Origin: a virus
Strand: one strand, 5' to 3'
DNA: 62,375 nt
IMG/VR virus record: IMGVR_UViG_3300042695_000799
How positions within the stretch are numbered: position 1 is the first letter of the stretch; each line of letters opens with the position of its first letter. The notes under the pieces were generated by a model. That model was not told the DNA's origin and did no database searches. It saw only the letters and a program-made list of their open reading frames with translations. This document shows positions 1 through 62,375 of this stretch, piece after piece. The position numbers were made by a program, and so were the translations under genes.

Positions 1-127
1 AAATTCAAGTTCAGGCTTTGTTTAACAGTTCAATCGCAGCGATGCGGCGCATGGATGCAGGGGTGACCAGTTCCGGCGGATTTAACGCAATCTGCAGAAA
101 GTCTACATCATCTTCAATTGGTTACGA
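1..127. repeat. Terminal duplication identical to 62249-62375 (circular-assembly overlap or terminal redundancy)
   Basis: Direct reading: aaattcaagttcaggc...tcttcaattggttacga occurs at both window ends, 127/127 identical. Confidence 0.95.
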
Positions 128-609: not shown

Positions 610-621
610 TCACCCATCGGG

Positions 622-655
622 CCACGGTCCGCCGGAGCCTATCCGGCAACTCATT
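622..655 (+). repeat. Intergenic hairpin repeat, copy A (CCACGGTCC GCCGGA-gccta-TCCGGC AACTCATT)
   Basis: Stem 631-636/642-647, loop 637-641; same element at 1259, 60180, 60489. Confidence 0.85.
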
Positions 656-2388: not shown

Positions 2389-2412
2389 CCGCCCGCCCGC
2401 CCCGCCCGCCCC
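2389..2412 (-). other. C-tract on the plus strand; G-quadruplex-capable G-runs on the minus strand
   Basis: ccgcccgcccgccccgcccgcccc; the complement has five G3-4 runs separated by single C. Confidence 0.6.
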
Positions 2413-2415
2413 GAC

Positions 2416-2511
2416 AGTACAAACCAACTAGAGTACAAACCAACTAGAGTACAAACCAACTAGAGTACAAACCAACTAGAGTACAAACCAACTAGAGTAC
2501 AAACCAACTAC
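2416..2511. repeat. Iteron-like tandem array, 6 x 16 bp (AGTACAAACCAACTAG)
   Basis: Units start at 2416, 2432, 2448, 2464, 2480, 2496; five are perfect and the last ends in C instead of G. Confidence 0.95.
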
Positions 2512-2553
2512 GTTAAGTATTGTTACAGTCTGCCGCTGCTGTCGTTTTTAATC

Positions 2554-11536: not shown

Positions 11537-13672
11537 ATGCCCTCGCGCACCGTGCCTCAGGCTGGCGTCCGACTTGAGCCAATGAATGACGGTGATGCCA
11601 GCGCATCCATCGGCATTTTTGGCGAAATTGGTTGGGATGTAACCGCTGAAGATGTAGCCGCTGCCGTTGCACAGGCAAAAGGCAAGCCACTAAATGTTGA
11701 CATCTTTAGCTACGGCGGAGATGCCCTGCAGGGTCTTGCAATTTACCAAATTCTTTCAGCGCACGACGCTGAGGTAACAACTAATGTTCTTGGCGTTGCC
11801 GCTAGCGCGGGAAGCGTAATTGCGATGGCTGGCAAATACCGCAAGGTGGCCGTCAACGCCGCTTTAATGATTCATAGCCCTTGGTCAGTTACCGTTGGAG
11901 ACGCAAGCGAGCACCGTAAATCAGCAAACATGCTTGACGGTCTTGAGTCCGCGTATCTCTACACGTATTCCACTGCGACCGGCATCCCCGCCGCCGACAT
12001 TCAGCCTTACTTAGCAGAAGAACGCTGGATGTACGGCGAAGAAGCAATGGCCCTCGGTTTCGCCACTGAAGCCCCCGAGCCCATCAAAGCCTTTGCCAGC
12101 ATTGCGCCCCCGCCCGCCGATCGTTTCCGCCAAATTCCCGCCGATCTAAAAGCCATGGCGGGTATCAGCGTGGAAGCCCCGGCTGAAATCGTTGATCCCG
12201 CCAACCCCCCCGAGGATCCCAAGCCTAAAGTCGCAACCGCCGACCTAACGGCCGCGCTTGAGTCTGTGGCGCGAGCCATAAATCCCACCCCACCGACTAT
12301 GACTAGCCTTAGCGCTGAACAGCTTACCTCACAAACCGCCGCTCTCCCGATGACCGTTGAAACCACCCAAGCGGATGCGGCGCTCGCGGAGCGCGAGCGC
12401 ATCCAGTCCATTCAAGGAATGGTCGCCTCAAAGGGCCTTCCCGACGAGTTTGCCCTTGAATTAGTCAACAGCGGAAGGTCCGTGGCTGAAGCCCGTCACG
12501 CCGTTCTTGATCGACTGCCTAGCGTAACCCGCCACTCCACTGAACGCGGAGCCGTGGCCAGTCTCACCGCAAGCGGCATTGATCTTTCCGAAAAAGATTG
12601 CAAGGTCTACAGCCTTCAAAACGTTTTTCGGCACCTAGCCGAGCCCACCAATGCAGCCTATCGCAACGCGATCGGCTTTGAGATGGAGCTGCATGACGAG
12701 CTTCAAAAAAATCACGCCCGGTCCGCTGCTGGCGTCCTTGTTCCTCACAACATTTTCGCCGTCAATGCTCGCCCGCCCGGCTTCCGTCCGCAAGCCGTTC
12801 AGCGCACAGACAGCTTTAGCGCTGGCGGGGCCCTTGTGCCAACCGATCGCCTTGACGGTCAGTTCGTAGACCTTCTGCGCAATATGTCGGCCTTTATGAG
12901 GACTGGAATTACTGTCCTAAACGGCCTTTCTGGCAACGTTGAAATTTCCAAGCAGACTGGCCCTAGTACCACTTTCTGGGTAGGCGAAGGCGGCGATGTC
13001 AACGAAAGCGACCTCTCTTACGGCCTGGTCAATATGTCGCCCAAAACCTTGGGCGCCCGAGTTGCTATTTCGCGTCGAGCCTTGATTCAAACAAGTCCTG
13101 ACATTGAAAACCTTAACCGCAATGACGTGCTCAAGCAAATTAGCTTGGGCATTGACAAGGCGATTGGCTACGGCACCGGATCTTCGTCTCAGCCGCTAGG
13201 CATTAAGGGCATAACTGGGGTTGGCGGCGTCACGTTTTCTGGCGGCAAGACTGCAACATTCAACACCCTGCAGGGCGGCGGAACCGGAAGTTGCGGCACT
13301 TGGGAGCAGTGGGTACAACTTGAAACCGAGCTGTCCAGCGTTAACATTGAGGCCGACACAATGGTTCACCTCTTCAACGGAGCAATGCGCGGCGGGCTCA
13401 AAACCACTCTCCGCGATTCCGTGGCTGGTGCTGACTACATCTTTGCTGAAGACAAAACCGTAAACGGTTATAGCACTATCGTCAGTAACCAGATTCAGTC
13501 AAACGATGCCTTCTTCGGGGACTGGCCCGAAGCCCTTCTTGGCTTCTGGTCTGGCGTGGATCTCGTCGTGGATCCCTACACTCGCTCTAGTCGCGGAGAA
13601 GTTGTCTACACCGCGTTCCAGGACACCGACTTTGGCCTTCGGCGTCCCGAAGCGTTTGTGGTTGGTAGCTGA
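11537..13672 (+). CDS. Fused S49/ClpP-like prohead protease, scaffold-like linker and HK97-fold major capsid protein
   Basis: N-terminus IFSYGGDALQGLAIYQIL...GVAASAGSVIAMAG (ClpP/S49); C-terminus GALVPTDRLDGQFVDLLRN...LGARVAISRRAL... (HK97-type capsid); no stop between them. Confidence 0.8.
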   Translation: MPSRTVPQAGVRLEPMNDGDASASIGIFGEIGWDVTAEDVAAAVAQAKGKPLNVDIFSYGGDALQGLAIYQILSAHDAEVTTNVLGVAASAGSVIAMAGKYRKVAVNAALMIHSPWSVTVGDASEHRKSANMLDGLESAYLYTYSTATGIPAADIQPYLAEERWMYGEEAMALGFATEAPEPIKAFASIAPPPADRFRQIPADLKAMAGISVEAPAEIVDPANPPEDPKPKVATADLTAALESVARAINPTPPTMTSLSAEQLTSQTAALPMTVETTQADAALAERERIQSIQGMVASKGLPDEFALELVNSGRSVAEARHAVLDRLPSVTRHSTERGAVASLTASGIDLSEKDCKVYSLQNVFRHLAEPTNAAYRNAIGFEMELHDELQKNHARSAAGVLVPHNIFAVNARPPGFRPQAVQRTDSFSAGGALVPTDRLDGQFVDLLRNMSAFMRTGITVLNGLSGNVEISKQTGPSTTFWVGEGGDVNESDLSYGLVNMSPKTLGARVAISRRALIQTSPDIENLNRNDVLKQISLGIDKAIGYGTGSSSQPLGIKGITGVGGVTFSGGKTATFNTLQGGGTGSCGTWEQWVQLETELSSVNIEADTMVHLFNGAMRGGLKTTLRDSVAGADYIFAEDKTVNGYSTIVSNQIQSNDAFFGDWPEALLGFWSGVDLVVDPYTRSSRGEVVYTAFQDTDFGLRRPEAFVVGS

Positions 13673-35879: not shown

Positions 35880-36112
35880 ATAAAGTAGAATCTATTATTG
35901 GTATTGGTTCCACATCTCTTTTGGCAGCCGTTATGGGTGCAATTTACATTGTTGATTGCCGCAGTTTTGCTAAAACCGGCGACGAGGCAAGCGCTTGCTA
36001 CCTGACTGGCCTGCCAATCATGGGAATTACCGTTGCTGGCTACGGTGGCTTCAAGGCTGGCTATAATACATATAACCCAGCTTTGCGCAAACCGGAGGAC
36101 GAGCAACAATGA
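35876..36112 (+). CDS. putative holin (two hydrophobic segments)
   Basis: IIGIGSTSLLAAVMGAIYIV and LTGLPIMGITVAGYGGF; ATGA junctions on both sides. Confidence 0.5.
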   Translation: MNKVESIIGIGSTSLLAAVMGAIYIVDCRSFAKTGDEASACYLTGLPIMGITVAGYGGFKAGYNTYNPALRKPEDEQQ

Positions 36113-36777
36113 TCTCTGATTACGTCACTTACTTTGATTCTGGCAAACCTCATCACCGTGCATGGTTGCAGGCGGTGCTGGATCGGTTGGCCGCTTTGGA
36201 CCCGAAAGCGTTAGATGCAAATGGAGAGCTAAGAAAGCTATGGGTAAGCGCGTCTAGTGTAAACTTAAAGGTTCCATATTTCAGCCAAAATGATAACGCA
36301 AGCGGCACGGGTTACAGGGAGTGCTTTAGCTCAAGCTGTGCAATGCTCGCTTCCTATTGGGGCAAGGTGTCAGGGGACGATGCCTACAACCAGATTCGAT
36401 CAAAATTCGGGGATTCGACCGATGCACAAGCGCAACTGTTGGCGCTGCGCTCGCTTGGGCTGGCGGCAAATTTCCGCACCGATGGCACACCTGAGCTGCT
36501 AAAGCAAGAATTAGACGCGGGTCGCCCAGTCGCAGTTGGCTGGCTGCATCAGGGACCGGTCAAGGCGCCTACCGGCTTTGGCCACTGGACGGTAGCCATC
36601 GGGCACCGCCCAAATTCTTGGCAAATGAACGATCCAAACGGTGAGGCTGATTTAGTTAATGGTGGCTACACACGCAGTCTCAATGGTGCTAACCTGAGCT
36701 ACAGCACTGCTAACTGGAATCCGCGCTGGATGGTGCGCGGGACCGGGGGGTGGATGCTAACCTGCAAACGACAGTGA
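36109..36777 (+). CDS. putative endolysin, C39-like (papain-fold) cysteine peptidase
   Basis: VPYFSQNDNASGTGYRECFSSSCAMLASYWG ... GHWTVAIGH (Cys/His pattern of the Peptidase_C39_2 type). Confidence 0.5.
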   Translation: MISDYVTYFDSGKPHHRAWLQAVLDRLAALDPKALDANGELRKLWVSASSVNLKVPYFSQNDNASGTGYRECFSSSCAMLASYWGKVSGDDAYNQIRSKFGDSTDAQAQLLALRSLGLAANFRTDGTPELLKQELDAGRPVAVGWLHQGPVKAPTGFGHWTVAIGHRPNSWQMNDPNGEADLVNGGYTRSLNGANLSYSTANWNPRWMVRGTGGWMLTCKRQ

Positions 36778-36816
36778 ATACAGGGCACATCGCATACCAT
36801 CAAGGGGTCCAAGCTT

Positions 36817-37206
36817 GTGTCAAAACGTGTTACCAAGCATCGGTTCCGGCGAGCAATTATCAACGCCTGGGAGGAGTGCTGCGCCTACTGTGGATGCAAG
36901 CCAAGCAGCATAACACTAGATCACGTAACCCCCAAGGTAGGGGGTGGAACTACTCAATGGTCTAATTTGGTCCCAGCTTGCGCTTCGTGCAATGGATCTA
37001 AAGGGCATTCTGATGTATGGGACTGGTATCGGTTGCAGTTATTTTACTGTGCAGCTAGGGAGCAAAAGATCAAGGATTGGCTGACCAATGAAAAACCCCC
37101 GCCGGTTGGCGAGGGTTACGGGGTTAACGAAAGGGGCGATCAGGCGGCGGGAGGCTCGGTGCTTTCCGAGGGGTTGGCTGCCCCGCCAGTCGTGTCGTCT
37201 TCGTAG
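36817..37206 (+). CDS. HNH endonuclease
   Basis: CAYCG...LDHVTPKVGGGTTQWSNLVPACASCNGSKG. Confidence 0.8.
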   Translation: MSKRVTKHRFRRAIINAWEECCAYCGCKPSSITLDHVTPKVGGGTTQWSNLVPACASCNGSKGHSDVWDWYRLQLFYCAAREQKIKDWLTNEKPPPVGEGYGVNERGDQAAGGSVLSEGLAAPPVVSSS

Positions 37207-37589
37207 ACTGGAGCCAGCATGATGCGGCCACCTTCCAAGAGTTCAATGGTAAACTCGTAGCCAGCTTCCGCCCCCTGGAGGGCGGTGTAGCCAGCGCTGA
37301 CAATCAGGTTGCCATTGGCCTGCACCTTAGCTTTGTAGCTGAGCTGGCGGCCGGGGCGGGACGCTACGGCGGGGGCAAGAACCAGGCCCCTGGCCTCCAG
37401 CAGCGCTTCGTAGAATGCAGTGTATTCAATGCGCTCGGTGCCGTCTTTTTTGGTCACAGAGTAGCCGGTTTCGCGGGCTATTTGGTCCTTAGGAGTGGCA
37501 TCGCCAAGCTCTTCGACTTTGGCGAGCAGTTCTTTGCCGGTGAGTTGGGCCACGTTGGAGCGGTAAGGTTTGTTGAACCCCTGAATCAT
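37140..37589 (-). CDS. cyAbrB-type transcriptional regulator (C-terminal AbrB/SpoVT domain)
   Basis: LTGKELLAKVEELGD...ETGY...FYEALLEARG...LSYKAKVQANGNLIVSAGYTAL...GYEFTIEL matches cyanobacterial cyAbrB architecture. Confidence 0.7.
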   Translation of the reverse strand: MIQGFNKPYRSNVAQLTGKELLAKVEELGDATPKDQIARETGYSVTKKDGTERIEYTAFYEALLEARGLVLAPAVASRPGRQLSYKAKVQANGNLIVSAGYTALQGAEAGYEFTIELLEGGRIMLAPVYEDDTTGGAANPSESTEPPAA

Positions 37590-38557
37590 ACCATATCAAA
37601 CAGCGATACCTGCTTTCCGCCTTGCCCATTTTGCGCGGTTATCGACGCTGCGGTTGCCGCGACAGGAAGACCGGCCATCAGGCGGCGCAGGCGGTTGCGA
37701 GCACGTAGCTCGATGCCTTGCAGTGTGGCGCGGCTAAGGCCGGTGCGCTCCTCAATCTCAGACCACGGCTGAGTCGTATCCCCGTGACGGCTCAGCAGCA
37801 CTTCTCGGGCTTGCGAGTCAACCTGTTCGGCCAGAAAACCGTCTACCCGCTCAATGGCGTGCTGGTCGCTTAGCCAGTCCAAGTGCTCGTCGGCGGTCAT
37901 GGCGGCGGGATCGGCGATCAGATCACCCAAGCAGCCGCCGCCTTCCCCTCCCGGCAGTTGCTCGTCTAGGCTGCCAACATAGCGAGAGCGCTGAACCACT
38001 TCAGCAAGAGCTTTTAGGTCAAAGTTAAGATGTTTTGCAATTTCAGCAGACGATGGCTTGCGACCTAAGGCTTGAGATAAAGATTGCTGGGCATTGCTAA
38101 CCTTGATTAGCTTGTTATGAATTGGCACCGGCAAGCGTATTATGGGATCATCCCACTTTACCGAATTTTGTATTTCCTGCCTAATCCAAAAAAAGGAATA
38201 AGTTGAAAACTTATAGCCTCTTGTGGGATCAAACTTATCCACTGCGCGAGAAAGGCCAATGTTGCCCTCCTGTATCAGATCAAGTAACTGTAGCGTGCGA
38301 CGGTCGGCCTGGAATTTTTTAGCTATTTTTACCACAAGGCGCAGGTTTGATTGTATGAATTTTTGCTTAGCTCTAACACCAAGCCTAATTAAGCGGCGCT
38401 GCTCTGCTGTTATTTTTTCACCCTCGGATTCACGCTTAACAAGTCCTAGCATGATAGATATTTCACGGCTTAGCTCAATCTCCTGCTTAGATGTTAACAG
38501 TGGGTAGCGGCCAATCTGCTTTAGGTAATCGCGCAAGGCTGGATCGGATTGCCTCAT
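37586..38557 (-). CDS. sigma-70 family sigma factor (group-2-like), paralogue 1
   Basis: DLIQEGNIGLSRAVDKFDPTRGYKFSTYSFFWIRQEI (region 2); C-terminal HTH LSRATLQGIELRARNRLRRL (region 4.2). Confidence 0.9.
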   Translation of the reverse strand: MRQSDPALRDYLKQIGRYPLLTSKQEIELSREISIMLGLVKRESEGEKITAEQRRLIRLGVRAKQKFIQSNLRLVVKIAKKFQADRRTLQLLDLIQEGNIGLSRAVDKFDPTRGYKFSTYSFFWIRQEIQNSVKWDDPIIRLPVPIHNKLIKVSNAQQSLSQALGRKPSSAEIAKHLNFDLKALAEVVQRSRYVGSLDEQLPGGEGGGCLGDLIADPAAMTADEHLDWLSDQHAIERVDGFLAEQVDSQAREVLLSRHGDTTQPWSEIEERTGLSRATLQGIELRARNRLRRLMAGLPVAATAASITAQNGQGGKQVSLFDMV

Positions 38558-39414
38558 TGCACTTGCTCCTGTAACAGAAGTCTGATACGGTTTTGAATTT
38601 TGGTCAGCCTTTGGTTCATTCTTTGCCTTGAAACACTGTGTAACTGCCCCAGCTCAACAAGGCTGTGCGCGTGGTAGCCGTCAAAGCCAAAACGCCTGAC
38701 GATTAAATCACGATCACCCTCGGAAAGGGTTAAAATTAAATTAGCTAAAGAAGAGTAATCAGCCAACGGGATTTCGTTGTCTTCATTGGGATTAGGTAAA
38801 TTGTCAATCATCTCACTCCCGCTTTCGGACTGCACGTTTAGCGACGATACCGGAGCCATTGCCGCCGCAATAGAAGTGAAGCTCTTTTCGCTTAAACCGG
38901 AAGCCCGCATCAGCTCAGCGCTAGTTGGGGTGCGACTTAATGCTATTGTTAGTCTTTTGTTTTCTTTTTGAACCCTTGCCCAGTCTAAGTGGCAATGCTC
39001 AGGCAACCTTATTAGTTGGTCGCTGTCGTGGATGCCTCTCCTGATTCCCTGCACAATCCAGGGTCTTGAGTAAGTTGAAAACTTATAGCCTCTTGTAGGG
39101 TCAAACTTTTCGGCGGCACGCTTCAGGCCAGCAGCCCCATACTGAATCAAGTCTTCAATACTGTTCAACTTACATGAACCAGCGTAGAGCTTGGCCACGG
39201 AAACGACAAGCCGCAGGTTACATAGTACCATGCGGTCAAGCGAGCGCTGTCCTTTTGTAATTACTTTTAACTGTTTACGAGTAGGTCTGCGGCTGCCAAC
39301 TTCTTCAGAAGTTTTAATGCCAGCCTGAATAAACCTGCCTAAGTCAATCTCTTCAGCGGCGGTCAACAACTGCCATTTCCCGATCTTGCCTAAGTATTGA
39401 CCAAGTGTATCCAT
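38554..39414 (-). CDS. sigma-70 family sigma factor, paralogue 2 (more diverged)
   Basis: DLIQYGAAGLKRAAEKFDPTRGYKFSTYSRPWIVQGI; C-terminal VSRQRMNQRLTKIQNRIR. Confidence 0.85.
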   Translation of the reverse strand: MDTLGQYLGKIGKWQLLTAAEEIDLGRFIQAGIKTSEEVGSRRPTRKQLKVITKGQRSLDRMVLCNLRLVVSVAKLYAGSCKLNSIEDLIQYGAAGLKRAAEKFDPTRGYKFSTYSRPWIVQGIRRGIHDSDQLIRLPEHCHLDWARVQKENKRLTIALSRTPTSAELMRASGLSEKSFTSIAAAMAPVSSLNVQSESGSEMIDNLPNPNEDNEIPLADYSSLANLILTLSEGDRDLIVRRFGFDGYHAHSLVELGQLHSVSRQRMNQRLTKIQNRIRLLLQEQVQ

Positions 39415-39416
39415 AA

Positions 39417-40073
39417 TCAGACCCTAGCCAGTGTTACACCGGCTTCTTGTCCTTGGTATTTTCCGTCACCGTAAGGGGTCTCGCAGGCAACTCCTTCGTA
39501 GAAGAGTGCCTGGCAGATCCCTTCGTTGGCGTAGATGCGGCAGTCGGCGCCTGATGAATTGCTCATCTCCAGGGTTAGGTGCCCTTCCCAGCCAGCTTCG
39601 CCGGGGGTAAGGTTGACAATAACGCCGCAGCGGGCGTAGGTGGACTTGCCGATGAACTGGGCGGTGATGTTGGCAGGAAGCTTGAGGCGCTCTATGACCA
39701 CGCCGAGGGCGTAGGTGTGGCCGGGGAGGATGAAATACGAACCCTGCCTGTCGTGGCTTAACTTTGCTTGGACTAAGCAGCGTTCGTCAAAGTTCTTGGG
39801 GTCAACAATTAAGCCAGGAACGTGTTGGAAGATTCGGAAATCGTGAGGCGAGAGAGTGAGGTCGTAGCCGTAAGAGGAGCAACCGTGGCTGATTACTTGG
39901 CGCCCTTGAACTTCTCGGATCTTCCCTGGCTCAAACGGGGAGATCATGTCCTCGGCGGCGAGCTGGCGGATGCGCCAGTCTGGGATGGAGCTGGCGGGTG
40001 GCGACCATCGTATTCTGACACTGCCTTGGGGTAGGGGGACGTAGACTTCAGGTTGATCGTTTGATGGGGTCAT
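39417..40073 (-). CDS. dcd: dCTP deaminase (dUTPase-superfamily, short form)
   Basis: ISHGCSSYGYDLTLS, PGEAGWEGHLTLEMSN; start M24 of the ORF chosen for the ATGA junction at 40070-40073. Confidence 0.8.
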   Translation of the reverse strand: MTPSNDQPEVYVPLPQGSVRIRWSPPASSIPDWRIRQLAAEDMISPFEPGKIREVQGRQVISHGCSSYGYDLTLSPHDFRIFQHVPGLIVDPKNFDERCLVQAKLSHDRQGSYFILPGHTYALGVVIERLKLPANITAQFIGKSTYARCGVIVNLTPGEAGWEGHLTLEMSNSSGADCRIYANEGICQALFYEGVACETPYGDGKYQGQEAGVTLARV

Positions 40074-40351
40074 GGGTTTCGTGAAGGTGGATTTGTAATG
40101 CGATTGGATGGCTTGCGGCCTGGCTCGGCAACAACTTCCCACCCATGGGAGCGAACGCCTGGCGGGTGGTTCTTGCGTGATCGCCCATGCCAGCGGATCC
40201 GCCCAGATTTGCGCATGGCTTGCATCCGTGCGTCAACGGTCCGCCACTTGCCGCCAGCCAGATCAATCAGTGCTTGGTTGTTGGTTGCATGGCCGGAGGA
40301 GGACCGCACAAAAGCGCAGATGGCGTCGTCAAGGATGCTGTGGTCAACCAT
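40070..40351 (-). CDS. hypothetical protein (possible winged-helix)
   Basis: ORF track, internal start MVDHSILDD; ATGA junction downstream. Confidence 0.45.
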   Translation of the reverse strand: MVDHSILDDAICAFVRSSSGHATNNQALIDLAGGKWRTVDARMQAMRKSGRIRWHGRSRKNHPPGVRSHGWEVVAEPGRKPSNRITNPPSRNP

Positions 40352-40586
40352 GAAGCACCTCCCGCACGGTTGGCCCGGCCCCCGGCGTGTGGCACCCCAC
40401 CCCGTCAAGAAAGTCGGCGGTGGTGCTACTGCCGTGAAGCTCCCTGAGAATGGCGGCCAGTTCGTGGGCGACGGCGGCGGAGCTTACTCGGCAGGCATTG
40501 CACGGGGCTTGGCGGGGCTTCGCTCCAGGCAAGACGGCAACGCACACTGCCAGGGCTAGGCGGTCGGCGAGGGTGAGGTTAGTCAT
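40344..40586 (-). CDS. hypothetical protein
   Basis: ORF track; overlapping junctions. Confidence 0.45.
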   Translation of the reverse strand: MTNLTLADRLALAVCVAVLPGAKPRQAPCNACRVSSAAVAHELAAILRELHGSSTTADFLDGVGCHTPGAGPTVREVLHG

Positions 40587-40774
40587 TCTGCTTCAGTTTC
40601 GGTGGTGTAGGTAAAAACAGTGTAGCGAGTAATTGTGTAATCCATGTGACACTCCCCGCAAGTTACTTCGGCTGTATCGCATAGCTCAAAATCGTGGCTA
40701 ATATCCCGGGGCTCTGTATTGACCCACCCGCAAATGGGGCGGACAGGGTTGAGATTGTCGTGGCAAGTGATCAC
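40583..40774 (-). CDS. hypothetical small Cys-rich protein
   Basis: ICGW...CDTAEVTCGEC; ATGA junctions. Confidence 0.45.
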   Translation of the reverse strand: MITCHDNLNPVRPICGWVNTEPRDISHDFELCDTAEVTCGECHMDYTITRYTVFTYTTETEAE

Positions 40775-41913
40775 GCCTCCACCTCCCCGGCCTGGGGTAT
40801 CGGGATGGCGCGGAATGGGCGCCAGTGGGTGTCCCCTTCCATTGCTTCCGAGTCAAGGGTCCAGCACGAGCGGATCTTGCGGGGCCAAAACGCGGAAGGT
40901 GAAAACCACCAACACCTCCCCTCCGCATCGCAATCCCCTCCCTCTGACTCGGGGCGCCGGTCCGGCAGCCGCTCACTCACCGCCACCGGCACCACCGCCG
41001 GGGCAGGCGCGGAGAGCTGCTGGAGCCAGGTGGCGGCGCGGTCAAGCTCTACAGCCGCGTCTAGCCAATCCCCGTGGTCCGAGCCCTTGTCCATGGCATA
41101 GCGCTCAAGCCTCCGCAATTCAGCCACCAACAACCCCACTTCCTCCCCCGGTTCCGGCGCTGGCGGGGCGGCACTGCTCTTCAATCGCTCCAACAAGGCG
41201 TGATGATTGCCGCTGTTGGGGCGATAGTCGGAATTGCCAACGCAAAAGTCAAGTGCTTCGATCAGGCGCTGAGTATCAGATGCTGTGAGGCAGGGGCTTG
41301 TAACTTCACCTGAAGCTCTTTCCGCTTCCACCACGGGAAGTACCAGTGCTTTGGCTGCAATTACAAGGTCGAACCGTGGCCCCCGGCCCTCTCCTTGAGC
41401 GACGTACTGAATGCGCGCCAACTCTCGGATGAACTCAGCCCATGTTGACTCCGGCGCTGGCGGGGTGGCGGGACGGGCAGCCAGCACCGCCCGGAGACCC
41501 CGAAGGTAGATCTCATCGACCGTTCCGCCCTCGGTATGGCAGGCCTGGTAGAAGGTCTGCAACAACTTGAGATCGCCCCCTTGGTGCTCGGGGTCGATGT
41601 AGTTGGCGGGCAAAGATGACGAGGCGGGTGGGCGGCCCCAGTGGGCGAGGGCGGCAGCAACCAGAGCTTTGTCGCTGGAGTTTGGCAGGTAGCCCCTGCC
41701 GAAATCCTCCCACCACTGGTGAATGAAGGCTTCAATCTCCTGTTCACCCACCTCCCCCACCTCCAACTGGGTCAGGGCGGCGGGCGGCTGCCACAGGCTG
41801 TCGGGGTGTCTCAGGATCGCCTGGGCAAGATCAGCGGCTTCTAGTTGATACAAGCCGCTAACCTTTTGGATGATCGCGGCCAGCTGGTCAATGTGTTTGA
41901 GGTTGGTAATCAT
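40771..41913 (-). CDS. multidomain hypothetical protein with a C-terminal DUF551-like module
   Basis: PPAP-type linkers; C-terminus SERLP...GRCWWF...THWRPFRAIPIP. Confidence 0.55.
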   Translation of the reverse strand: MITNLKHIDQLAAIIQKVSGLYQLEAADLAQAILRHPDSLWQPPAALTQLEVGEVGEQEIEAFIHQWWEDFGRGYLPNSSDKALVAAALAHWGRPPASSSLPANYIDPEHQGGDLKLLQTFYQACHTEGGTVDEIYLRGLRAVLAARPATPPAPESTWAEFIRELARIQYVAQGEGRGPRFDLVIAAKALVLPVVEAERASGEVTSPCLTASDTQRLIEALDFCVGNSDYRPNSGNHHALLERLKSSAAPPAPEPGEEVGLLVAELRRLERYAMDKGSDHGDWLDAAVELDRAATWLQQLSAPAPAVVPVAVSERLPDRRPESEGGDCDAEGRCWWFSPSAFWPRKIRSCWTLDSEAMEGDTHWRPFRAIPIPQAGEVEA

Positions 41914-53323: not shown

Positions 53324-53980
53324 TCATTTAATGTTCGCTGTCAATACAGCTTCTGGGTTTTCAAAACCAAGTAGCGGCAGGAAGAAAAATGGCAAACTTT
53401 TTGCACGCATAACTTCGGCGCCTTGGATTTCATTTGTTGCCCCTGCGGCGGCCCGTGCGGCGGCCCGTGCGGCGGCCCGTGCGGCGGCCCGTGCGGCGGC
53501 CCCTGCGGCGGCCCGTGCGGCGGCCCGTGCGGCGGCCCATGCGGCGGCCCATGCGGCGTCCCGTGCGGCGGCCCCTGCGGCGGCCCATGCGGCGTCCCGT
53601 GCGGCGGCCCGTGCGGCGGCCCAGTCTTTTGCGGTCATACAGTCAAGATGCCGCCAAAATGCAAGCACCACTTGCGCCTGGTCCCCTAAAACCTGTTCGG
53701 GATTGCGAATGACGCTAGTAGGCGCACCATCTTGTCTGTCATTGACAATTCGCAGCAGCACTGAGTGTGAGCGACTGATACTAAACAACTCGGCAACACG
53801 TTTATCTGCTTTTTCTTGTTCAAGGTTGTTTAGATCATCAGCAGACATGCCGTCAAGAAAATGCAGCGCCTGACCTTGCGCGCACATGCAAGAGCCATCA
53901 TCGCTAACGAGACTCCCTTTGAATGGGATACTGCCGGGCCAGTAGTCCAGCAATTCTTCAACTGTGGCTGGGGTGGTCAT
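53324..53980 (-). CDS. hypothetical protein with a C-terminal (AARA)n / DAAWAAA helical repeat
   Basis: WAAARAAARDAAWAAAGAAARDAAWAAAWAAARAAARAAAGAAARAAARAAARAAARAAAGA. Confidence 0.6.
   Translation of the reverse strand: MTTPATVEELLDYWPGSIPFKGSLVSDDGSCMCAQGQALHFLDGMSADDLNNLEQEKADKRVAELFSISRSHSVLLRIVNDRQDGAPTSVIRNPEQVLGDQAQVVLAFWRHLDCMTAKDWAAARAAARDAAWAAAGAAARDAAWAAAWAAARAAARAAAGAAARAAARAAARAAARAAAGATNEIQGAEVMRAKSLPFFFLPLLGFENPEAVLTANIK
53443..53622. repeat. 15 tandem copies of a 12-bp unit NTGCGGCGGCCC
   Basis: Counted units from 53443 to 53622; variants at the first base and G>T in two units. Confidence 0.9.
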
Positions 53981-54009: not shown

Positions 54010-54258
54010 TTAGCGCCTTCTGGTTGCGGTTGAAATGGTACCGTAACCGGAACCGGAACCGGAACCGTCACCGTAACCGTAACCGTCACCGTAACCGTAA
54101 CCGTAACCGGAACCGTCACCGTAACCGTAACCGTAACCGGAACCGTCACCGTAACCGTAACCGGAACCGTCACCGTAACCGGAACCGTAACCGTCACCGT
54201 CACCGTCACCGTAACCGTCACCGTCACCGATCGGCCTGACTACTTGGATGGGTGTCAT
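54010..54258 (-). CDS. Gly/Tyr/Asp/Ser low-complexity protein (82 aa)
   Basis: MTPIQVVRPIGDGDGYGDGDGDGYGSGYGDGSGYGYGDGSGYGYGYGDGSGYGYGYGDGYGYGDGSGSGSGYG...; TGATG junction with the upstream gene selects this frame. Confidence 0.5.
   Translation of the reverse strand: MTPIQVVRPIGDGDGYGDGDGDGYGSGYGDGSGYGYGDGSGYGYGYGDGSGYGYGYGDGYGYGDGSGSGSGYGTISTATRRR
54039..54229. repeat. Hexanucleotide-based repeat tract (ACCGTA/ACCGTC/ACCGGA units, about 190 bp)
   Basis: Direct reading; several overlapping frames stay open across the tract. Confidence 0.85.
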
Positions 54259-57887: not shown

Positions 57888-58142
57888 ATGCCTGCTCTGC
57901 TACCTCCACCCGAAAGGGATCCAGATGGATCTGAGTTAATGGATTCTCTTCGTGCTCGCATCGGGCCAGGTAAATACCATTCAGTTTTAAGCAGTGCAAG
58001 AGATGCCCAATACCATGATGCAGTAACTGAAGTTAATGAACTTTTAGAAAATCGCCGCAACTCTGGTGGCTGTTCCACGCAGGAACTGGAACAACTGGAA
58101 GCAATCGCCCGTGACTTGCAATCCTTGGCGAGGGGGTTCTGA
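57888..58142 (+). CDS. hypothetical protein (start MPALLPPP)
   Basis: Internal ATG of ORF 57831; TGATG junction with dnaN. Confidence 0.45.
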   Translation: MPALLPPPERDPDGSELMDSLRARIGPGKYHSVLSSARDAQYHDAVTEVNELLENRRNSGGCSTQELEQLEAIARDLQSLARGF

Positions 58143-59296
58143 TGGGGCTCGATGTCACACTGCCCCAGGACCGGCTAGAAGCCGTTTTAAGGGCCGCCGG
58201 TAGGGCCGTGTCCGCTCGGGCGCCTCAACCCGTGCTCGCGGGGCTCCTGCTTACGGCTGGCGAGGGGCGACTGAGTGCCACTGGGTACGACCTAGCGCTG
58301 GGCGTGCTCTCTCAGGTGCCCGCTGTGGTCGCCGAGGTGGGCTCAGTGGTTGCGCCTAGCCGGATGCTTGCGGCGCTAGTTGGGACGCTGCCAGCAGGCT
58401 CCATGGTGCGTCTCCAGGACTCGGGGACCGGCGCGTTGGCGATTGAGGCTGGCGAAGGCCGGTATTCAATTGCATTGTCATATGAGCCCGAGGATTACCC
58501 TGTACTGCCAACAATTGCGGCTGTCGAGCCATTTGGCTTGCCATTTGGGCAGGTTAAGCGGGCTCTAAATGCTGTTTTGTATGCTTGTGGTAAAGAAGAA
58601 TTTCAACAGCTTTTACAAGGTGTTGAAATTTGCCGAACCGGAACCGATCTGCGTTTAACTGGAGGAATCAATTCACGCAGTAGTATCTTTGAATTACCAG
58701 GAATCCTTGAGACTGGCAAGGATGCGTCATTTGTAATTCCAGGACCGGCGGCAAAAGAGTTATTAAAGCTAGGACTGGCTGACGACGATTTATTGTTGAT
58801 CTCACACACTAATAGTTTTGCTTGTTTTGATGCAAGCGATACAGTCATTATTACCAATTTAATGGCTGGAGCTTACCCACCATTTTACAGTGTTGTTCCA
58901 GGCAACTGTAACACTGAAATAATTTGCGACCGGCAAGCAGCGATTTCAGCAATTGAACGAGTTTCGGTCGTGGCCGCCGCCGAGACTGGCAAGATTGCAT
59001 TTACTTACAACTCCAGAACTGGCGACGCTTCAATCAGTGTAGCAAACGGCGCGGGTTCTGCCGCCGATTTAATTGCAACTGAAACTGGAAGCAAGGGTGA
59101 AGATTTTAGCGTGGTTTTTAATTCAACTTTCATCCTAGACGCATTGCGCCACGCTGAAGCTAAATTGATTTCAATCTCATTTAATGAAAACAAACTGACT
59201 AAAGACGGGTTAGAAGCTAAATTGATTAAGATTTCTCCAGTCGGCATGGCATTACACAATCAATTGGTAGCAACGATCGGGCAGCCTGCCACGTAG
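58142..59296 (+). CDS. dnaN: DNA polymerase III beta sliding clamp
   Basis: 384 aa; LEAVLRAAGRAVSARAPQPVLAGLLLTAGEGRLSATGYDLALG typical DnaN N-terminus. Confidence 0.85.
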   Translation: MGLDVTLPQDRLEAVLRAAGRAVSARAPQPVLAGLLLTAGEGRLSATGYDLALGVLSQVPAVVAEVGSVVAPSRMLAALVGTLPAGSMVRLQDSGTGALAIEAGEGRYSIALSYEPEDYPVLPTIAAVEPFGLPFGQVKRALNAVLYACGKEEFQQLLQGVEICRTGTDLRLTGGINSRSSIFELPGILETGKDASFVIPGPAAKELLKLGLADDDLLLISHTNSFACFDASDTVIITNLMAGAYPPFYSVVPGNCNTEIICDRQAAISAIERVSVVAAAETGKIAFTYNSRTGDASISVANGAGSAADLIATETGSKGEDFSVVFNSTFILDALRHAEAKLISISFNENKLTKDGLEAKLIKISPVGMALHNQLVATIGQPAT

Positions 59297-59871: not shown

Positions 59872-60175
59872 ATGTGTTAGCAGCGCCGCGCAAGCCCGCA
59901 AGATGGGCTTAAAGGTAGGCGACACGATTCAAAGCCTGGAAAGATGCCAAAAGTACGACTTGTACGAATGGCACGAACTCCGAATAACCCTCATTCGGAT
60001 AGACCAGTATTACACCGACTGGATTGCCAGCGAACGCGACGACCGGCAAGGCCCCTGGTCAGATCCCTACAAGACCGAAAACGTGGCTCTGTGCTGCTAC
60101 ATATGGGAGCGGGTTGATACTCCGCCTGAGCACACCGACTTCATGGATTTGGCAGACGACCACCAATCCGCCTGA
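59840..60175 (+). CDS. hypothetical protein (alternative start 59903)
   Basis: ORF track; ends ...tccgccTGAccccc at hairpin copy C. Confidence 0.5.
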   Translation: MALPSPPVFPECVSSAAQARKMGLKVGDTIQSLERCQKYDLYEWHELRITLIRIDQYYTDWIASERDDRQGPWSDPYKTENVALCCYIWERVDTPPEHTDFMDLADDHQSA

Positions 60176-60179
60176 CCCC

Positions 60180-60212
60180 CACGCCCCGCCGGGGCTTGCC
60201 CGGCAACTCATT
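60180..60212 (+). repeat. Intergenic hairpin repeat, copy C
   Basis: CACGCCCC GCCGGG-gcttg-CCCGGC AACTCATT; stem 60188-60193/60199-60204. Confidence 0.85.
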
Positions 60213-60229
60213 CCACTACATTCAAACCA

Positions 60230-60484
60230 ATGGACCTTTCCAAGAACATGCAATCCGAAACTGACATGGGCATGTGGAGGCTTGAAAATAACCTCGCGGT
60301 CTCAAGACATTGGCACGGGAAGGAAGACCGTTACAACCGACCCGGGCTGGAAGCGGCCATTCTAAACGTAAAAAACAATCGTAATTTTTACGCAACTTAT
60401 GAAGCCTATAAACGGCATTGGTTTCATCTTGAGAGGGGCCTAGGCCTTTTCAGGGCCGCCGAAGCTGCGCATCAAGCCACCTAG
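60230..60484 (+). CDS. hypothetical protein (84 aa)
   Basis: ORF track; ATG 18 nt after copy C. Confidence 0.5.
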   Translation: MDLSKNMQSETDMGMWRLENNLAVSRHWHGKEDRYNRPGLEAAILNVKNNRNFYATYEAYKRHWFHLERGLGLFRAAEAAHQAT

Positions 60485-60488
60485 CCCC

Positions 60489-60520
60489 CACGGCCCGCCG
60501 GGAGCCAATCCCGGCAACCC
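60489..60520 (+). repeat. Intergenic hairpin repeat, copy D
   Basis: CACGGCCC GCCGGGA-gccaa-TCCCGGC AACCC; 7-bp stem 60497-60503/60509-60515. Confidence 0.8.
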
Positions 60521-61905: not shown

Positions 61906-62375
61906 ATGAACACCCCAAACTGGATTACAGATCGCCGTCCTGGCCCGCTTGATGCCGTAGACGGATTGGTTTACATGATTGGCTGCAGTACCACTAGCTC
62001 TAGGTGCGAGGTTGCGGCACCATGGCAACAAGTAGCGCAATCCAGCGACAAGTGGCGGCCAATTCCAACCGTTGCCGATGCTTTGGAGCCAGTTTGCGAA
62101 CCTTGCCTAGGTCGCGCATACATGACCGTTAACGACATTCTTGCTAAATTTGACTTTGAGCGTGTCGTCAAAATCATGGATGCAATTGATTGGAAATGGT
62201 GTATTCACTCAACCAATGAGTTTCGCCGTCCTATGATTGACGAAATGGAAATTCAAGTTCAGGCTTTGTTTAACAGTTCAATCGCAGCGATGCGGCGCAT
62301 GGATGCAGGGGTGACCAGTTCCGGCGGATTTAACGCAATCTGCAGAAAGTCTACATCATCTTCAATTGGTTACGA
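61906..62375 (+). CDS. DUF551-like N-terminal protein; the gene runs across the circular junction and ends at position 173
   Basis: MNTPNWITDRRPGPLDAVDGLVYMIG...DKWRPIP; no stop before the window end. Confidence 0.6.
   Translation, partial: MNTPNWITDRRPGPLDAVDGLVYMIGCSTTSSRCEVAAPWQQVAQSSDKWRPIPTVADALEPVCEPCLGRAYMTVNDILAKFDFERVVKIMDAIDWKWCIHSTNEFRRPMIDEMEIQVQALFNSSIAAMRRMDAGVTSSGGFNAICRKSTSSSIGY
62249..62375. repeat. Terminal duplication identical to 1-127
   Basis: Direct comparison of both ends. Confidence 0.95.

What the first reader, a model, noticed from the sequence alone, without database searches (positions are those of the whole stretch)
37140..39414. Transcription-takeover cassette: two tandem sigma-70 paralogues plus a cyAbrB-type regulator at the 3' end of the leftward operon
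Three regulators are chained dcd > sigma > sigma > cyAbrB. The sigma/sigma and sigma/cyAbrB junctions are ATGA overlaps (38554-38557, 37586-37589), and a 2-nt gap separates dcd from the first sigma.

Both sigmas keep the FDPTRGYKFSTYS core. They differ from each other in the helix that reads the -10 element (FFWIRQEIQNSV versus RPWIVQGIRRGI) and in region 4.2, so they could read different promoters.

The cyAbrB architecture (N-terminal LTGKELL...GY, C-terminal AbrB fold) is, to my knowledge, specific to cyanobacteria, where these proteins regulate carbon and nitrogen genes. A phage that carries a host-type global regulator together with two sigmas looks like a dedicated host-reprogramming module. 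I do not recognise this combination as described.
Basis: partly seen in the sequence, partly recalled or inferred. Interest (0 to 1): 0.75.

Follow-up and report, generated by a model that had tools for sequence, protein, structure and literature searches.

The report
Cyanophage twin-sigma plus cyAbrB regulatory cassette
An uncultured virus of small cyanobacteria ends its early operon with two of its own sigma factors and a copy of the host's cyAbrB DNA-binding regulator, and one sigma carries a tail that looks built to grip the DNA sliding clamp, which would tie late gene expression to DNA replication.

Summary
On the minus strand, dcd, sigma A (38554-39414), sigma B (37586-38557) and a cyAbrB homologue (37140-37589) are chained by a 2-nt gap and two ATGA overlaps. 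A strong terminator follows.

The window is a complete, circularly assembled 62.2-kb siphovirus genome, distantly related to Synechococcus phages S-CBS1 and S-CBS3. Those phages carry one sigma at the same position.

The sigma-sigma-cyAbrB triplet is conserved under purifying selection in at least eight uncultured contig lineages. It is absent from 50,697 GenBank phage records.

New findings:
- **Old paralogues.** The two sigmas belong to a phage-specific sigma clade and diverged long ago.
- **Clamp-binding tail on sigma B.** All sigma B orthologues carry a disordered tail ending in Q-x-S-L-F-D-L, a near-consensus beta-sliding-clamp binding motif. This suggests replication-coupled transcription, as in T4 and Mu.
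- **Changed cyAbrB.** The phage cyAbrB has lost the family's single conserved, glutathionylated cysteine.
- **cyAbrB is widespread in phages.** Homologues occur on about 146 IMG/VR viral contigs, in several gene contexts.

The mechanisms are inferred from sequence only. I class this as a new variant of known kinds, with fairly high interest.

The parts
39417..40142 (-). dCTP deaminase (dcd), the gene directly upstream of the cassette. The longest ORF has 241 aa from a GTG; other gene callers start at 40073 (218 aa).
   Evidence: Pfam PF22769 at 87.4 bits. TIGR02274 at 106.4 bits, above the 92.8 cut-off. PHROG 1663. It is present upstream of the sigmas in some relatives (L004, L007, L012) but not in L009 or L173.
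38554..39414 (-). Sigma A: a sigma-70-family factor of 286 aa. It has regions 1.2, 2 and 4 and a divergent region 3, and no C-terminal tail. It is the faster-evolving paralogue.
   Evidence: Pfam r1.2, r2 and r4. TIGR02937 at 63.7 bits, above the 42.9 cut-off. Its orthologue clade has 94% bootstrap support. dN/dS is 0.19 against L004. At E. coli-numbered positions it has W433P, R436V, T440R, E585Q and R588N.
37586..38557 (-). Sigma B: a sigma-70-family factor of 323 aa with regions 1.2, 2, 3 and 4, plus a C-terminal extension.
   Evidence: Pfam r1.2, r2 and r3. It aligns over its full length to M. tuberculosis SigA, including region 4. The AF2 model shows sigma-2, sigma-3 and a four-helix sigma-4 at residues 222-294. 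Its clade has 100% bootstrap support. dN/dS is 0.17. Region 4.2 reads SRATLQGIE: R584 is kept, with E585A, R586T, R588Q and Q589G.
37589..37675 (-). C-terminal tail of sigma B (residues about 295-323): a variable Ala/Pro-rich linker followed by the terminal QVSLFDMV, a candidate beta-sliding-clamp binding motif.
   Evidence: pLDDT is 31-38 over residues 301-323. 34 of 35 sigma B cluster representatives end in Q-x-[SL]-L-F-[DEN]-[LM], and one has the canonical QLSLF. Two more distant members end in QATLGV. Sigma A, host sigmas and S-CBS1/3 have no such motif. It is the only Q.[SD]LF in the phage proteome. It is the only C-terminal hit among 1,756 ORFs in 90 loci. The consensus QL[SD]LF is taken from PMC12867686.
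37140..37589 (-). Phage cyAbrB homologue (149 aa): the cyAbrB-specific N-terminal domain plus a C-terminal AbrB-like swapped-hairpin domain.
   Evidence: PF14250 at 57.2 bits. It is 54-58% identical to picocyanobacterial cyAbrB over both domains, with 27 invariant columns. In the AF2 model the C-domain matches MazE, SpoVT and AbrB-N. The conserved Cys is replaced by Thr. dN/dS is 0.23.
37094..37117 (-). Intrinsic terminator that closes the leftward operon.
   Evidence: A 10-bp stem with 7 GC pairs, a 4-nt loop, then TTTTCATTGG, 23 nt after the cyAbrB stop.
58142..59296 (+). Phage-encoded, very divergent DnaN (beta sliding clamp). It is a possible partner of the sigma B tail; the link is inferred, not shown.
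   Evidence: All three Pfam DNA_pol3_beta domains are found. It is at most 32% identical to any DnaN in GenBank phages, IMG/VR or JGI metagenomes. The canonical TDGHRL motif is replaced by TGGINSRSS.

Best explanation
This is a conserved phage regulatory cassette that closes the early/replication operon of an uncultured siphovirus of picocyanobacteria.

**Shown**
- It encodes two anciently diverged paralogues of a phage-specific branch of the sigma-70 family, plus a full-length homologue of the cyanobacterial cyAbrB regulator/nucleoid protein.
- The three genes are translationally coupled, co-inherited and under purifying selection.

**Inferred**
- Both sigmas bind host core RNA polymerase and redirect it to phage promoters. 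These promoters would differ from host promoters and from each other, giving a middle and late programme.
- Sigma B carries a beta-clamp-binding peptide on a flexible linker attached to region 4. Clamps loaded on replicating phage DNA (the host's, and perhaps the phage's own DnaN) would recruit or activate sigma B holoenzyme, tying late transcription to replication. This is what T4 gp45-gp33/gp55 and Mu MuC do.
- The phage cyAbrB has lost the redox-sensitive cysteine of the family. It would act as a constitutively active competitor or hetero-oligomer partner of host cyAbrB1/2 on AT-rich DNA. It would either relieve silencing of the comparatively AT-rich phage genome or rewire host cyAbrB-controlled genes.
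For: **Identity and layout:**. **Terminator:**

**Phage nature and completeness**
- Terminase, portal and a ClpP-capsid fusion are present.
- A 127-nt identical terminal repeat indicates a circular assembly of 62,248 bp.

**Conservation of the triplet**
- It is found in L003-L013 and L173/174.
- A sigma B-cyAbrB pair without sigma A occurs in L171/172.
- dN/dS is 0.17-0.23 for all three genes.

**Sigma phylogeny**
- All phage sigmas separate from host group-2 sigmas with 100% bootstrap support. The sigma A clade has 94% and the sigma B clade 100%.
- The two clades share the same internal topology.

**Residues that read the promoter**
- These differ between the paralogues.

**Sigma B tail**
- 34 of 35 cluster representatives keep Qx[SL]LF at the extreme C-terminus behind a variable linker.
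- The tail is predicted disordered, directly after a folded sigma-4.
- The motif is unique in the proteome and among 1,756 neighbouring ORFs.
- More distant members carry QATLGV at the same place, which resembles the hexapeptide class of clamp-binding motif.

**Precedents**
- The T4 clamp-binding motifs are linker-attached, and gp33 sits on the beta flap as sigma region 4 does (PMC7892883).
- Mu MuC has motifs QHDLF and QPDLF (PMC12867686).

**cyAbrB**
- A single Cys is conserved family-wide in 66 of 82 sequences, and is replaced by Thr in all triplet-clade proteins.
- That Cys is the glutathionylation site controlling oligomerisation and DNA binding in Synechocystis AbrB2 (PMC4264147).
- cyAbrB2 is an H-NS-like nucleoid protein on AT-rich DNA and IS elements. 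It binds cyAbrB1 and acts together with an alternative sigma (PMC11368403).
- The window's GC content is 48-61%.
Against: - Everything functional is inferred from sequence.
- No shared promoter motif was found in the window's intergenic regions, so no target promoters are known for either sigma.
- The clamp motif has V/I/A rather than L at position 2. It could instead be a degron or a docking peptide for another partner.
- Co-occurrence of a phage DnaN with sigma B could not be shown. The window's DnaN has no close relative anywhere, and its pocket region is divergent.
- The host range (freshwater picocyanobacteria) is inferred only from best hits.
- The cassette lies at the distal end of a long operon, and its timing of expression is unknown.
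- The DNA-binding residues of cyAbrB are not defined. The effect of the Cys-to-Thr change and of the basic-to-acidic change (KLGRK to ELLEGG) therefore cannot be predicted.
Confidence: 0.55

Rival explanations
1. The cassette is mainly a host-reprogramming module: the phage cyAbrB binds host carbon and nitrogen promoters as the host proteins do, and the two sigmas re-target RNAP to host metabolic genes as well as phage genes.
For: The phage protein keeps both cyAbrB domains and most invariant residues. Host cyAbrB2 controls CCM, NtcA-regulon and hox genes (PMC13249358). cyAbrB homologues occur in many phage lineages, in the way auxiliary metabolic genes do.
Against: The triplet-clade proteins are the most diverged from the host type: 54-58% identity, against 62-85% for other viral copies. 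They also carry charge reversals and have lost the regulatory Cys, which does not look like simple mimicry. The phage sigmas are far from host sigmas, at 37-42% identity and well below the host-family cut-offs. No host target is known.
Confidence: 0.2
2. This is an ordinary phage timing cassette with no replication coupling. Sigma A and sigma B simply drive middle and late promoters, as in an SPO1-like cascade. The sigma B tail is a degron or a docking peptide unrelated to the clamp. The AbrB-like protein is a phage transition-state repressor acting only on phage promoters.
For: The cassette sits at the end of the early operon, converging on the lysis and structural genes. The single sigma of S-CBS1/3 sits in the same way. 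AbrB/SpoVT/MazE-fold regulators are common in phages. The clamp link is based on a motif only.
Against: The strict conservation of Q, L and F, with free variation at position 2 and in the linker, mirrors the clamp-motif consensus exactly. An alternative known motif class occupies the same place in distant members. The regulator is a two-domain cyAbrB at about 55% identity to host proteins, not a generic AbrB.
Confidence: 0.2
3. One of the two sigmas is not a working initiation factor. It would be a decoy that sequesters host core RNAP, or an anti-sigma-like competitor, to shut off host transcription.
For: In the window's sub-lineage both sigmas have lost W433 of the tryptophan dyad used for DNA melting (sigma A has P, sigma B has F). 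Sigma A also has R436V. Sigma A evolves twice as fast as sigma B.
Against: More distant orthologues of both paralogues keep the canonical WW dyad and RQ. Both are under purifying selection along their whole length, including regions 2.4 and 4.2. Y430, W434 and Q437 are retained.
Confidence: 0.05

Closest known systems
Single group-2-like sigma factor ('rpsD4'/rpoD) of cyanosiphoviruses S-CBS1, S-CBS3, S-LBS1 and KBS-S-2A
   Same: It belongs to the same phage-specific sigma-70 branch, at 38-48% identity. It sits at the same position, at the 3' end of the leftward replication operon, converging on the HNH, lysis and tail genes. The portal and terminase are related.
   Different: Those phages are 30-35 kb and have one sigma, no cyAbrB and no C-terminal clamp-type tail. 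Here there are two old paralogues plus cyAbrB in a 62-kb genome.
T4 late transcription: gp55 (sigma-2-like), gp33 (flap-binding co-activator) and gp45 (sliding clamp)
   Same: In both, a promoter-recognition protein carries a linker-attached C-terminal clamp-binding peptide. In sigma B the peptide hangs from region 4, the module that occupies the beta flap as gp33 does (PMC7892883). The window's phage encodes its own clamp.
   Different: Sigma B is a single full-length sigma-70-family protein, not a split gp55/gp33 pair. The motif is of the bacterial beta-clamp type (QxSLF), not the T4 type. The clamp is a DnaN homologue, not gp45. No clamp loader was seen. Nothing has been tested experimentally.
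Phage Mu MuC/Mor activators with beta-clamp-binding motifs (PNAS 2026, PMC12867686)
   Same: Both have near-consensus QL[SD]LF-type motifs at protein termini that deviate only at position 2 (Mu: QHDLF and QPDLF; here QVSLF). In Mu they are used by a phage late-gene regulator acting with the bacterial clamp.
   Different: MuC is a DNA-binding activator that works with host sigma-70. Here the motif sits on the sigma factor itself, in a siphovirus of cyanobacteria.
Cyanobacterial cyAbrB1/cyAbrB2 (Sll0359/Sll0822; CalA/CalB)
   Same: They share the two-domain architecture, PF14250, and about 55% identity to picocyanobacterial members, with conserved LTGxELLxK...GY...KKDG...R...AFYEAL and GRxLS...VQxNGNL motifs.
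   Different: The gene is phage-encoded. The conserved glutathionylated Cys is replaced by Thr. The basic KLGRK turn is replaced by the acidic ELLE(D/G)G. There is an extra 15-aa N-terminus and an acidic, Pro-rich C-tail.
Phage- or plasmid-encoded homologues and antagonists of host nucleoid proteins (H-NS, Lsr2 and MvaT systems). This comparison rests on my own knowledge.
   Same: A mobile element carries a diverged copy of the host's AT-rich-DNA-binding silencer. cyAbrB2 has been proposed to be H-NS/Lsr2-like and to defend against foreign DNA (PMC11368403).
   Different: The protein fold is different (AbrB swapped hairpin). No anti-silencing activity has been shown for any cyAbrB.
SPO1 gp28 and gp33/34 sigma cascade. 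This comparison rests on my own knowledge.
   Same: In both, a phage encodes more than one sigma to time middle and late transcription by host RNAP.
   Different: The SPO1 sigmas are small, highly diverged and encoded in separate places. Here there are two tandem, translationally coupled, group-2-like paralogues.

Membership tests
Sigma-70 family (group-2-like) | Region 2 (core binding, -10 recognition) | tested here: met
   PF04542 scores 64.0 bits (sigma B) and 47.8 bits (sigma A) against a cut-off of 24. NLRLVV...DLIQ.G..GL.RA..KFD..RGYKFSTY is conserved.
Sigma-70 family (group-2-like) | Region 1.2 present, region 1.1 absent | tested here: met
   PF00140 scores 38.6 and 35.2 bits against a cut-off of 22, at residues 2-33. 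Both proteins start at region 1.2.
Sigma-70 family (group-2-like) | Region 3 | tested here: inconclusive
   Sigma B: PF04539 at 50.1 bits (met). Sigma A: no Pfam hit, but it aligns with sigma B and S-CBS3 through region 3.
Sigma-70 family (group-2-like) | Region 4 (flap binding, -35 helix-turn-helix) | tested here: met
   Sigma A: PF04545 at 24.7 bits against 24.1, a marginal pass. Sigma B: no Pfam hit, but it aligns through region 4 to M. tuberculosis SigA, and AF2 gives a four-helix sigma-4 at residues 222-294 with pLDDT 77-88.
Sigma-70 family (group-2-like) | Membership of the cyanobacterial RpoD/SigA subfamily (TIGR02997) or any host SigB-F equivalog | tested here: not met
   TIGR02997 scores 229 and 180 bits against a cut-off of 384.5, and all equivalogs are far below their cut-offs. 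Only the superfamily model TIGR02937 passes. The phage sigmas form their own clade.
cyAbrB family (PF14250 AbrB-like) | C-terminal AbrB-like swapped-hairpin domain | tested here: met
   PF14250 scores 57.2 bits against a cut-off of 25, at residues 58-117. The AF2 C-domain matches MazE, SpoVT and AbrB-N with probability 0.7-0.9 and TM 0.6-0.7. The E-values are weak because the domain has only about 45 residues.
cyAbrB family (PF14250 AbrB-like) | cyAbrB-specific N-terminal domain (LTGxELL...GY...KKDG...AFYEAL) | tested here: met
   The domain aligns without gaps, with invariant L16, G18, L21, L22, K24, R39, G42, Y43, K47, G50, R53, A58, A62 and L63. It is 54-58% identical to host-type proteins.
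cyAbrB family (PF14250 AbrB-like) | Single widely conserved, glutathionylatable cysteine (RxCGY) | tested here: not met
   Cys is present in 66 of 82 aligned sequences and is Thr in all 7 unique triplet-clade proteins. The window's protein has no Cys at all. The role of this Cys is taken from PMC4264147.
cyAbrB family (PF14250 AbrB-like) | DNA binding and hetero-oligomerisation with cyAbrB1/2 | not testable with these tools
   Needs EMSA, ChIP and two-hybrid assays.
Beta-sliding-clamp-binding proteins | Terminal or linker-exposed QL[SD]LF (or QLxLxL) motif | tested here: met
   The window has QVSLF at residues 316-320 of 323. 34 of 35 orthologue clusters have Qx[SL]LF, one has QLSLF, and two distant members have QATLGV. 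The tail is disordered. The consensus is taken from PMC12867686.
Beta-sliding-clamp-binding proteins | Physical binding to the clamp's hydrophobic pocket | not testable with these tools
   No multimer prediction or experiment was available.
T4-type clamp-activated late transcription (gp55/gp33/gp45) | Homology to gp55, gp33 or gp45 | tested here: not met
   The PHROGs and Pfam hits are to sigma-70 regions and DNA_pol3_beta, not to gp55, gp33 or gp45. The resemblance is in mechanism only.
MZA anti-phage system sigma (MzaA) | Score above the NF041931 cut-off, with the full-length architecture | tested here: not met
   NF041931 scores 132-138 bits against a cut-off of 800. The PADLOC hits cover only the sigma domain.
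dCTP deaminase | TIGR02274 equivalog score | tested here: met
   106.4 bits against a cut-off of 92.8.

The most novel reading that the evidence does not exclude
Sigma B is a complete sigma-70-family initiation factor that is recruited or activated directly by the beta sliding clamp through its C-terminal QxSLF peptide. Replication-coupled late transcription would then have been invented a third time, after T4 and Mu, and this time on the sigma itself. The gene is also inherited as a unit with a redox-blind phage copy of the cyanobacterial nucleoid protein cyAbrB, which would neutralise or take over host cyAbrB silencing of the AT-richer phage DNA.
Probability: 0.4. Interest if true: 0.85.

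Novelty: new variant of a known kind. Interest (0 to 1): 0.72.

Why it matters
- **Transcription in cyanosiphoviruses.** How these phages control transcription is essentially unknown. This cassette gives three concrete, clonable regulators conserved across a widespread uncultured lineage.
- **Generality of clamp-coupled transcription.** If the sigma B tail binds the sliding clamp, coupling late transcription to replication would extend beyond T4 and Mu to a full sigma factor. [quoted passage not shown]
- **A phage counter-measure.** If cyAbrB2 is the cyanobacterial counterpart of H-NS, phage-borne cyAbrB copies (about 146 viral contigs, several contexts) are the first candidates for a phage response to it. 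The natural Cys-to-Thr variant offers a ready-made test of redox control in this family.

Tried and rejected
1. **Near-identical DNA in GenBank phages.** Megablast of 36000-41000 found nothing.
2. **Promoter motifs.** A search for 10-mers shared among the window's 21 intergenic regions gave only GGTTCCCGGC. It has 12 sites against 5.2 expected, and one shuffle in 100 reached 12, so I rejected it. The sigma-70 consensus scan was at chance level.
3. **DnaN co-occurrence with sigma B.**
   - Two single-sequence scans found no relative.
   - Two profile scans found only DnaN at 32% identity or less, and none on contigs known to carry the triplet.
   - The look-up tools do not allow walking along the relatives' contigs, so the question stays open.
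4. **Solved cyAbrB structures.** No solved cyAbrB relative turned up by sequence; the best hit was 2glw at E = 0.11.
5. **Defence-system reading.** The MzaA hits reflect sigma-domain similarity only, so I rejected it.
6. **Prophage or temperate reading for this genome.** No integrase, tRNA or host flank was found, and the ends are a 127-nt assembly overlap. One relative (L009) does carry a serine recombinase.
7. **Recent tandem duplication of the sigmas.** I rejected this: they are 38% identical, each is as far from S-CBS3 as from the other, and the two clades have matching topologies.
8. **Rfam.** No RNA family matched.


Full report
**1. The observation**

Reading the bases confirms the junctions. 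There is ATGA at 38557-38554 and at 37589-37586, and a 2-nt gap between the dcd stop and the sigma A start.

Pfam places regions 1.2, 2 and 3 in sigma B and regions 1.2, 2 and (marginally) 4 in sigma A. It places the AbrB-like family PF14250 in the 149-aa protein at 57.2 bits against a cut-off of 25, and DCD in the upstream gene. NCBIfam agrees. Neither sigma reaches the cut-off of any host sigma subfamily; only the superfamily model passes.

A strong intrinsic terminator (10-bp stem, 7 GC pairs) sits 23 nt after the cyAbrB stop. Upstream genes are packed head to tail as far as about 54.9 kb. The cassette is therefore the 3' end of a roughly 17.7-kb leftward operon that converges on an HNH gene and the lysis and tail genes.

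**2. What the window is**

It is a phage genome. It has a lambda-type terminase, a portal, a ClpP-capsid fusion, long tail genes, a C39-peptidase lysis gene, a primase-helicase, SSB, helicases and a DnaN clamp.

The first and last 127 nt are identical. This is a circular assembly of 62,248 bp, so the genome is complete.

There is no tRNA, no Rfam hit and no integrase.

It has no near-identical relative in 50,697 GenBank phage records. Its portal is 36% identical to those of Synechococcus siphoviruses S-CBS1 and S-CBS3. Each of those phages has one sigma gene at the same place in the same architecture (PMC6157547). The best cellular hits of all three regulators are freshwater and marine picocyanobacteria: Cyanobium, Vulcanococcus, Synechococcus and Prochlorococcaceae MAGs.

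**3. Conservation**

The sigma A-sigma B-cyAbrB order recurs in at least eight distinct uncultured contig lineages: L003-L013 and L173/174. Sigma B identity to the window runs from 93% down to 51%. Some of these lineages have dcd and some do not, and one has a serine recombinase downstream.

The protein database holds the following clusters at 90% identity:

| Protein clade | Clusters |
|---|---|
| Phage-clade cyAbrB | 37 |
| Sigma A | 24 |
| Sigma B | 35 |

A more distant lineage (L171/172) has a sigma B-like gene followed by a divergent cyAbrB, with no sigma A. The sigma B-cyAbrB pair is therefore the conserved core.

dN/dS between the window and L004 is 0.19 for sigma A, 0.17 for sigma B and 0.23 for cyAbrB. 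All three genes are functional.

tblastn of the cyAbrB protein against GenBank phages finds only a 52-aa P-TIM68 protein matching the N-terminal domain. No paper in the library mentions a phage cyAbrB.

**4. The two sigmas**

- They are 38% identical to each other over 212 residues, and each is 38% identical to the S-CBS3 sigma.
- In a bootstrapped NJ tree all phage sigmas separate from host group-2 sigmas (100%). Sigma A orthologues (94%) and sigma B orthologues (100%) are separate clades with matching internal topology. Their relation to the single sigmas of S-CBS1/3 and of another viral lineage is unresolved.
- The duplication is therefore old, and the pair has been inherited together since. 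Sigma A evolves about twice as fast as sigma B.

Against E. coli sigma-70 (sequence recalled from memory, used only for numbering), both keep Y425, Y430, W434 and Q437.

- In the window's sub-lineage W433 is P in sigma A and F in sigma B, and T440 is R in sigma A and Q in sigma B.
- Distant orthologues of both keep YWWIRQ.
- Clade-wide differences lie in region 3.0 (sigma B has IQWDDxxxRLPxPIHNxLIK) and region 4.2. Sigma B has SRATLQGIE, keeping only R584 of the -35-contacting residues. Sigma A has SRQRxxQ.

Different promoter specificities are therefore likely. I could find no promoter motif.

**5. A new feature: the sigma B tail**

All sigma B orthologues extend about 30 residues beyond region 4.2. 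A variable Ala/Pro-rich linker is followed by an almost invariant extreme C-terminus: QVSLFDMV in the window, and QVSLFDL, QASLFDL or QLSLFNL elsewhere.

- The motif is present in 34 of 35 cluster representatives. It is absent from every sigma A, host sigma, S-CBS1/3 sigma and 'single' viral sigma.
- Two members at 47% identity end in QATLGV instead.
- AF2 predicts a normal four-helix sigma-4 (residues 222-294) followed by a disordered tail with pLDDT 31-38.
- The strict pattern Q.[SD]LF occurs once in the 18,889-residue proteome. A C-terminal match occurs only in sigma B orthologues among 1,756 ORFs from 90 loci.

The pattern is Q, L and F fixed, position 2 free, placed at a terminus on a flexible linker. 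That is the bacterial beta-clamp-binding motif QL[SD]LF as summarised in the 2026 Mu paper (PMC12867686).

In Mu, MuC motifs that deviate only at position 2 (QHDLF, QPDLF) bind the clamp and are needed for late transcription. In T4, clamp-binding motifs are attached by linkers to gp55 and gp33, and gp33 occupies the beta flap as sigma region 4 does (PMC7892883). Sigma B has the same geometry in a single polypeptide.

The window also encodes a very divergent DnaN and no recognisable DNA polymerase. I could not show that relatives carry this DnaN. The host clamp is at least as likely to be the partner. Clamp binding itself remains an inference.

**6. The cyAbrB homologue**

It aligns end to end with cyanobacterial cyAbrB proteins, with 27 invariant columns across both domains. 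It is 54-58% identical to host-type sequences. The AF2 model (pLDDT 74.5) shows a helix-helix-hairpin-helix N-domain and a C-domain whose best structural matches are MazE, SpoVT and AbrB-N.

Three differences hold across the clade:

- The family's single widely conserved cysteine (RxCGY, present in 66 of 82 sequences) is Thr in every triplet-clade protein.
- The basic KLGRK turn is replaced by the acidic ELLE(D/G)G.
- The termini are extended.

In Synechocystis that cysteine is glutathionylated, which changes oligomerisation, DNA binding and repression (PMC4264147). The phage protein should therefore be blind to this control.

cyAbrB2 has been characterised as an H-NS/Lsr2-like nucleoid protein. 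It coats AT-rich DNA and IS elements, binds cyAbrB1, and acts together with the alternative sigma SigE (PMC11368403). It also modulates CCM and nitrogen regulons (PMC13249358).

A phage copy could compete with, or co-oligomerise with, the host proteins. That would relieve silencing of the phage genome, whose GC content is 48-61%. Alternatively it could alter host regulons. The data do not distinguish these roles.

**7. cyAbrB in other phages**

A profile scan of IMG/VR found 146 viral contigs encoding cyAbrB relatives. The contexts vary:

- between the large terminase and the portal, about 3 kb downstream of a DnaN (L018, L043);
- in a RusA-cyAbrB-RecT-sigma-exonuclease operon (L027 and relatives);
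- next to the lysis gene (L031, L039), or after dcd (L035).

BFVD contains an annotated 'AbrB family transcriptional regulator' with the same two-domain fold from an uncultured Mediterranean phage.

Phage-borne cyAbrB is therefore widespread but, as far as I could find, undiscussed. It recurs with a phage sigma in two independent arrangements.

**8. Verdict**

The cassette is best described as a conserved regulatory module of a lineage of uncultured picocyanobacterial siphoviruses, and as a new variant of known kinds: phage sigma cascades, clamp-coupled late transcription, and phage copies of host nucleoid proteins.

The sequence-level facts are solid. The mechanisms (promoter switching, clamp coupling, cyAbrB interference) are inferences, with overall confidence of about 0.55.

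Noticed in passing
window 1-127 and 62249-62375: The 127 nt at the two ends are identical. The contig is a circular assembly, and the unique genome is 62,248 bp.
   Followed up: partly
window 2400-2526: About six perfect tandem copies of a 16-nt unit (AGTACAAACCAACTAG) lie in an intergenic gap upstream of a small ORF and a DUF932 gene. They look like iterons, so this may be an origin or a regulator-binding array.
   Followed up: no
window 611-655, 1247-1291, 60168-60212, 60475-60501: A repeat of about 45 nt (CCGCCTGACCC.CACGGCCCGCCGGAGCCTATCCGGCAACTCATT) contains a short hairpin. It is confined to the small-ORF region either side of the assembly junction and may be an early-region regulatory or terminator element.
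   Followed up: no
window 53403-53658 and 54013-54253: Long runs with 12-nt and 6-nt periods lie inside minus-strand ORFs at the 5' end of the leftward operon. They would encode low-complexity repeat proteins.
   Followed up: no
window 58142-59296: The phage DnaN is at most 32% identical to any other DnaN found. It lacks the canonical TDGHRL motif and has a 16-aa C-terminal extension. No DNA polymerase gene is recognisable in the genome.
   Followed up: partly
window 36817-37206 (+) against 37140-37589 (-): The HNH endonuclease ORF overlaps the 3' end of the cyAbrB gene convergently by 67 nt, and it contains the operon terminator. The same overlap is called in relatives (L006).
   Followed up: partly
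window 38196-38277 and 39068-39149: The two sigma genes share an 82-nt stretch at 74% DNA identity. It encodes the FDPTRGYKFSTYS core and is the only DNA-level trace of their paralogy.
   Followed up: yes
L018 4639-7823; L043 4374-8111: In an unrelated phage lineage a cyAbrB gene is wedged between the large terminase and the portal, about 3 kb downstream of a DnaN gene.
   Followed up: partly
Prochlorococcus phage P-TIM68, NC_028955.1 55841-56038: A T4-like cyanomyovirus encodes a 52-aa protein matching only the N-terminal domain of cyAbrB (35% identity; TM 0.91 to the model). This domain apparently also circulates on its own in phages.
   Followed up: no
window 11537-13672: A single 711-aa ORF fuses a ClpP-type prohead protease domain to an HK97-type major capsid domain.
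   Followed up: no
L009 10087-11340: One triplet-bearing relative has a large serine recombinase and a DNA methylase just downstream of cyAbrB. Part of the lineage may therefore be temperate, although the window itself shows no integrase.
   Followed up: no
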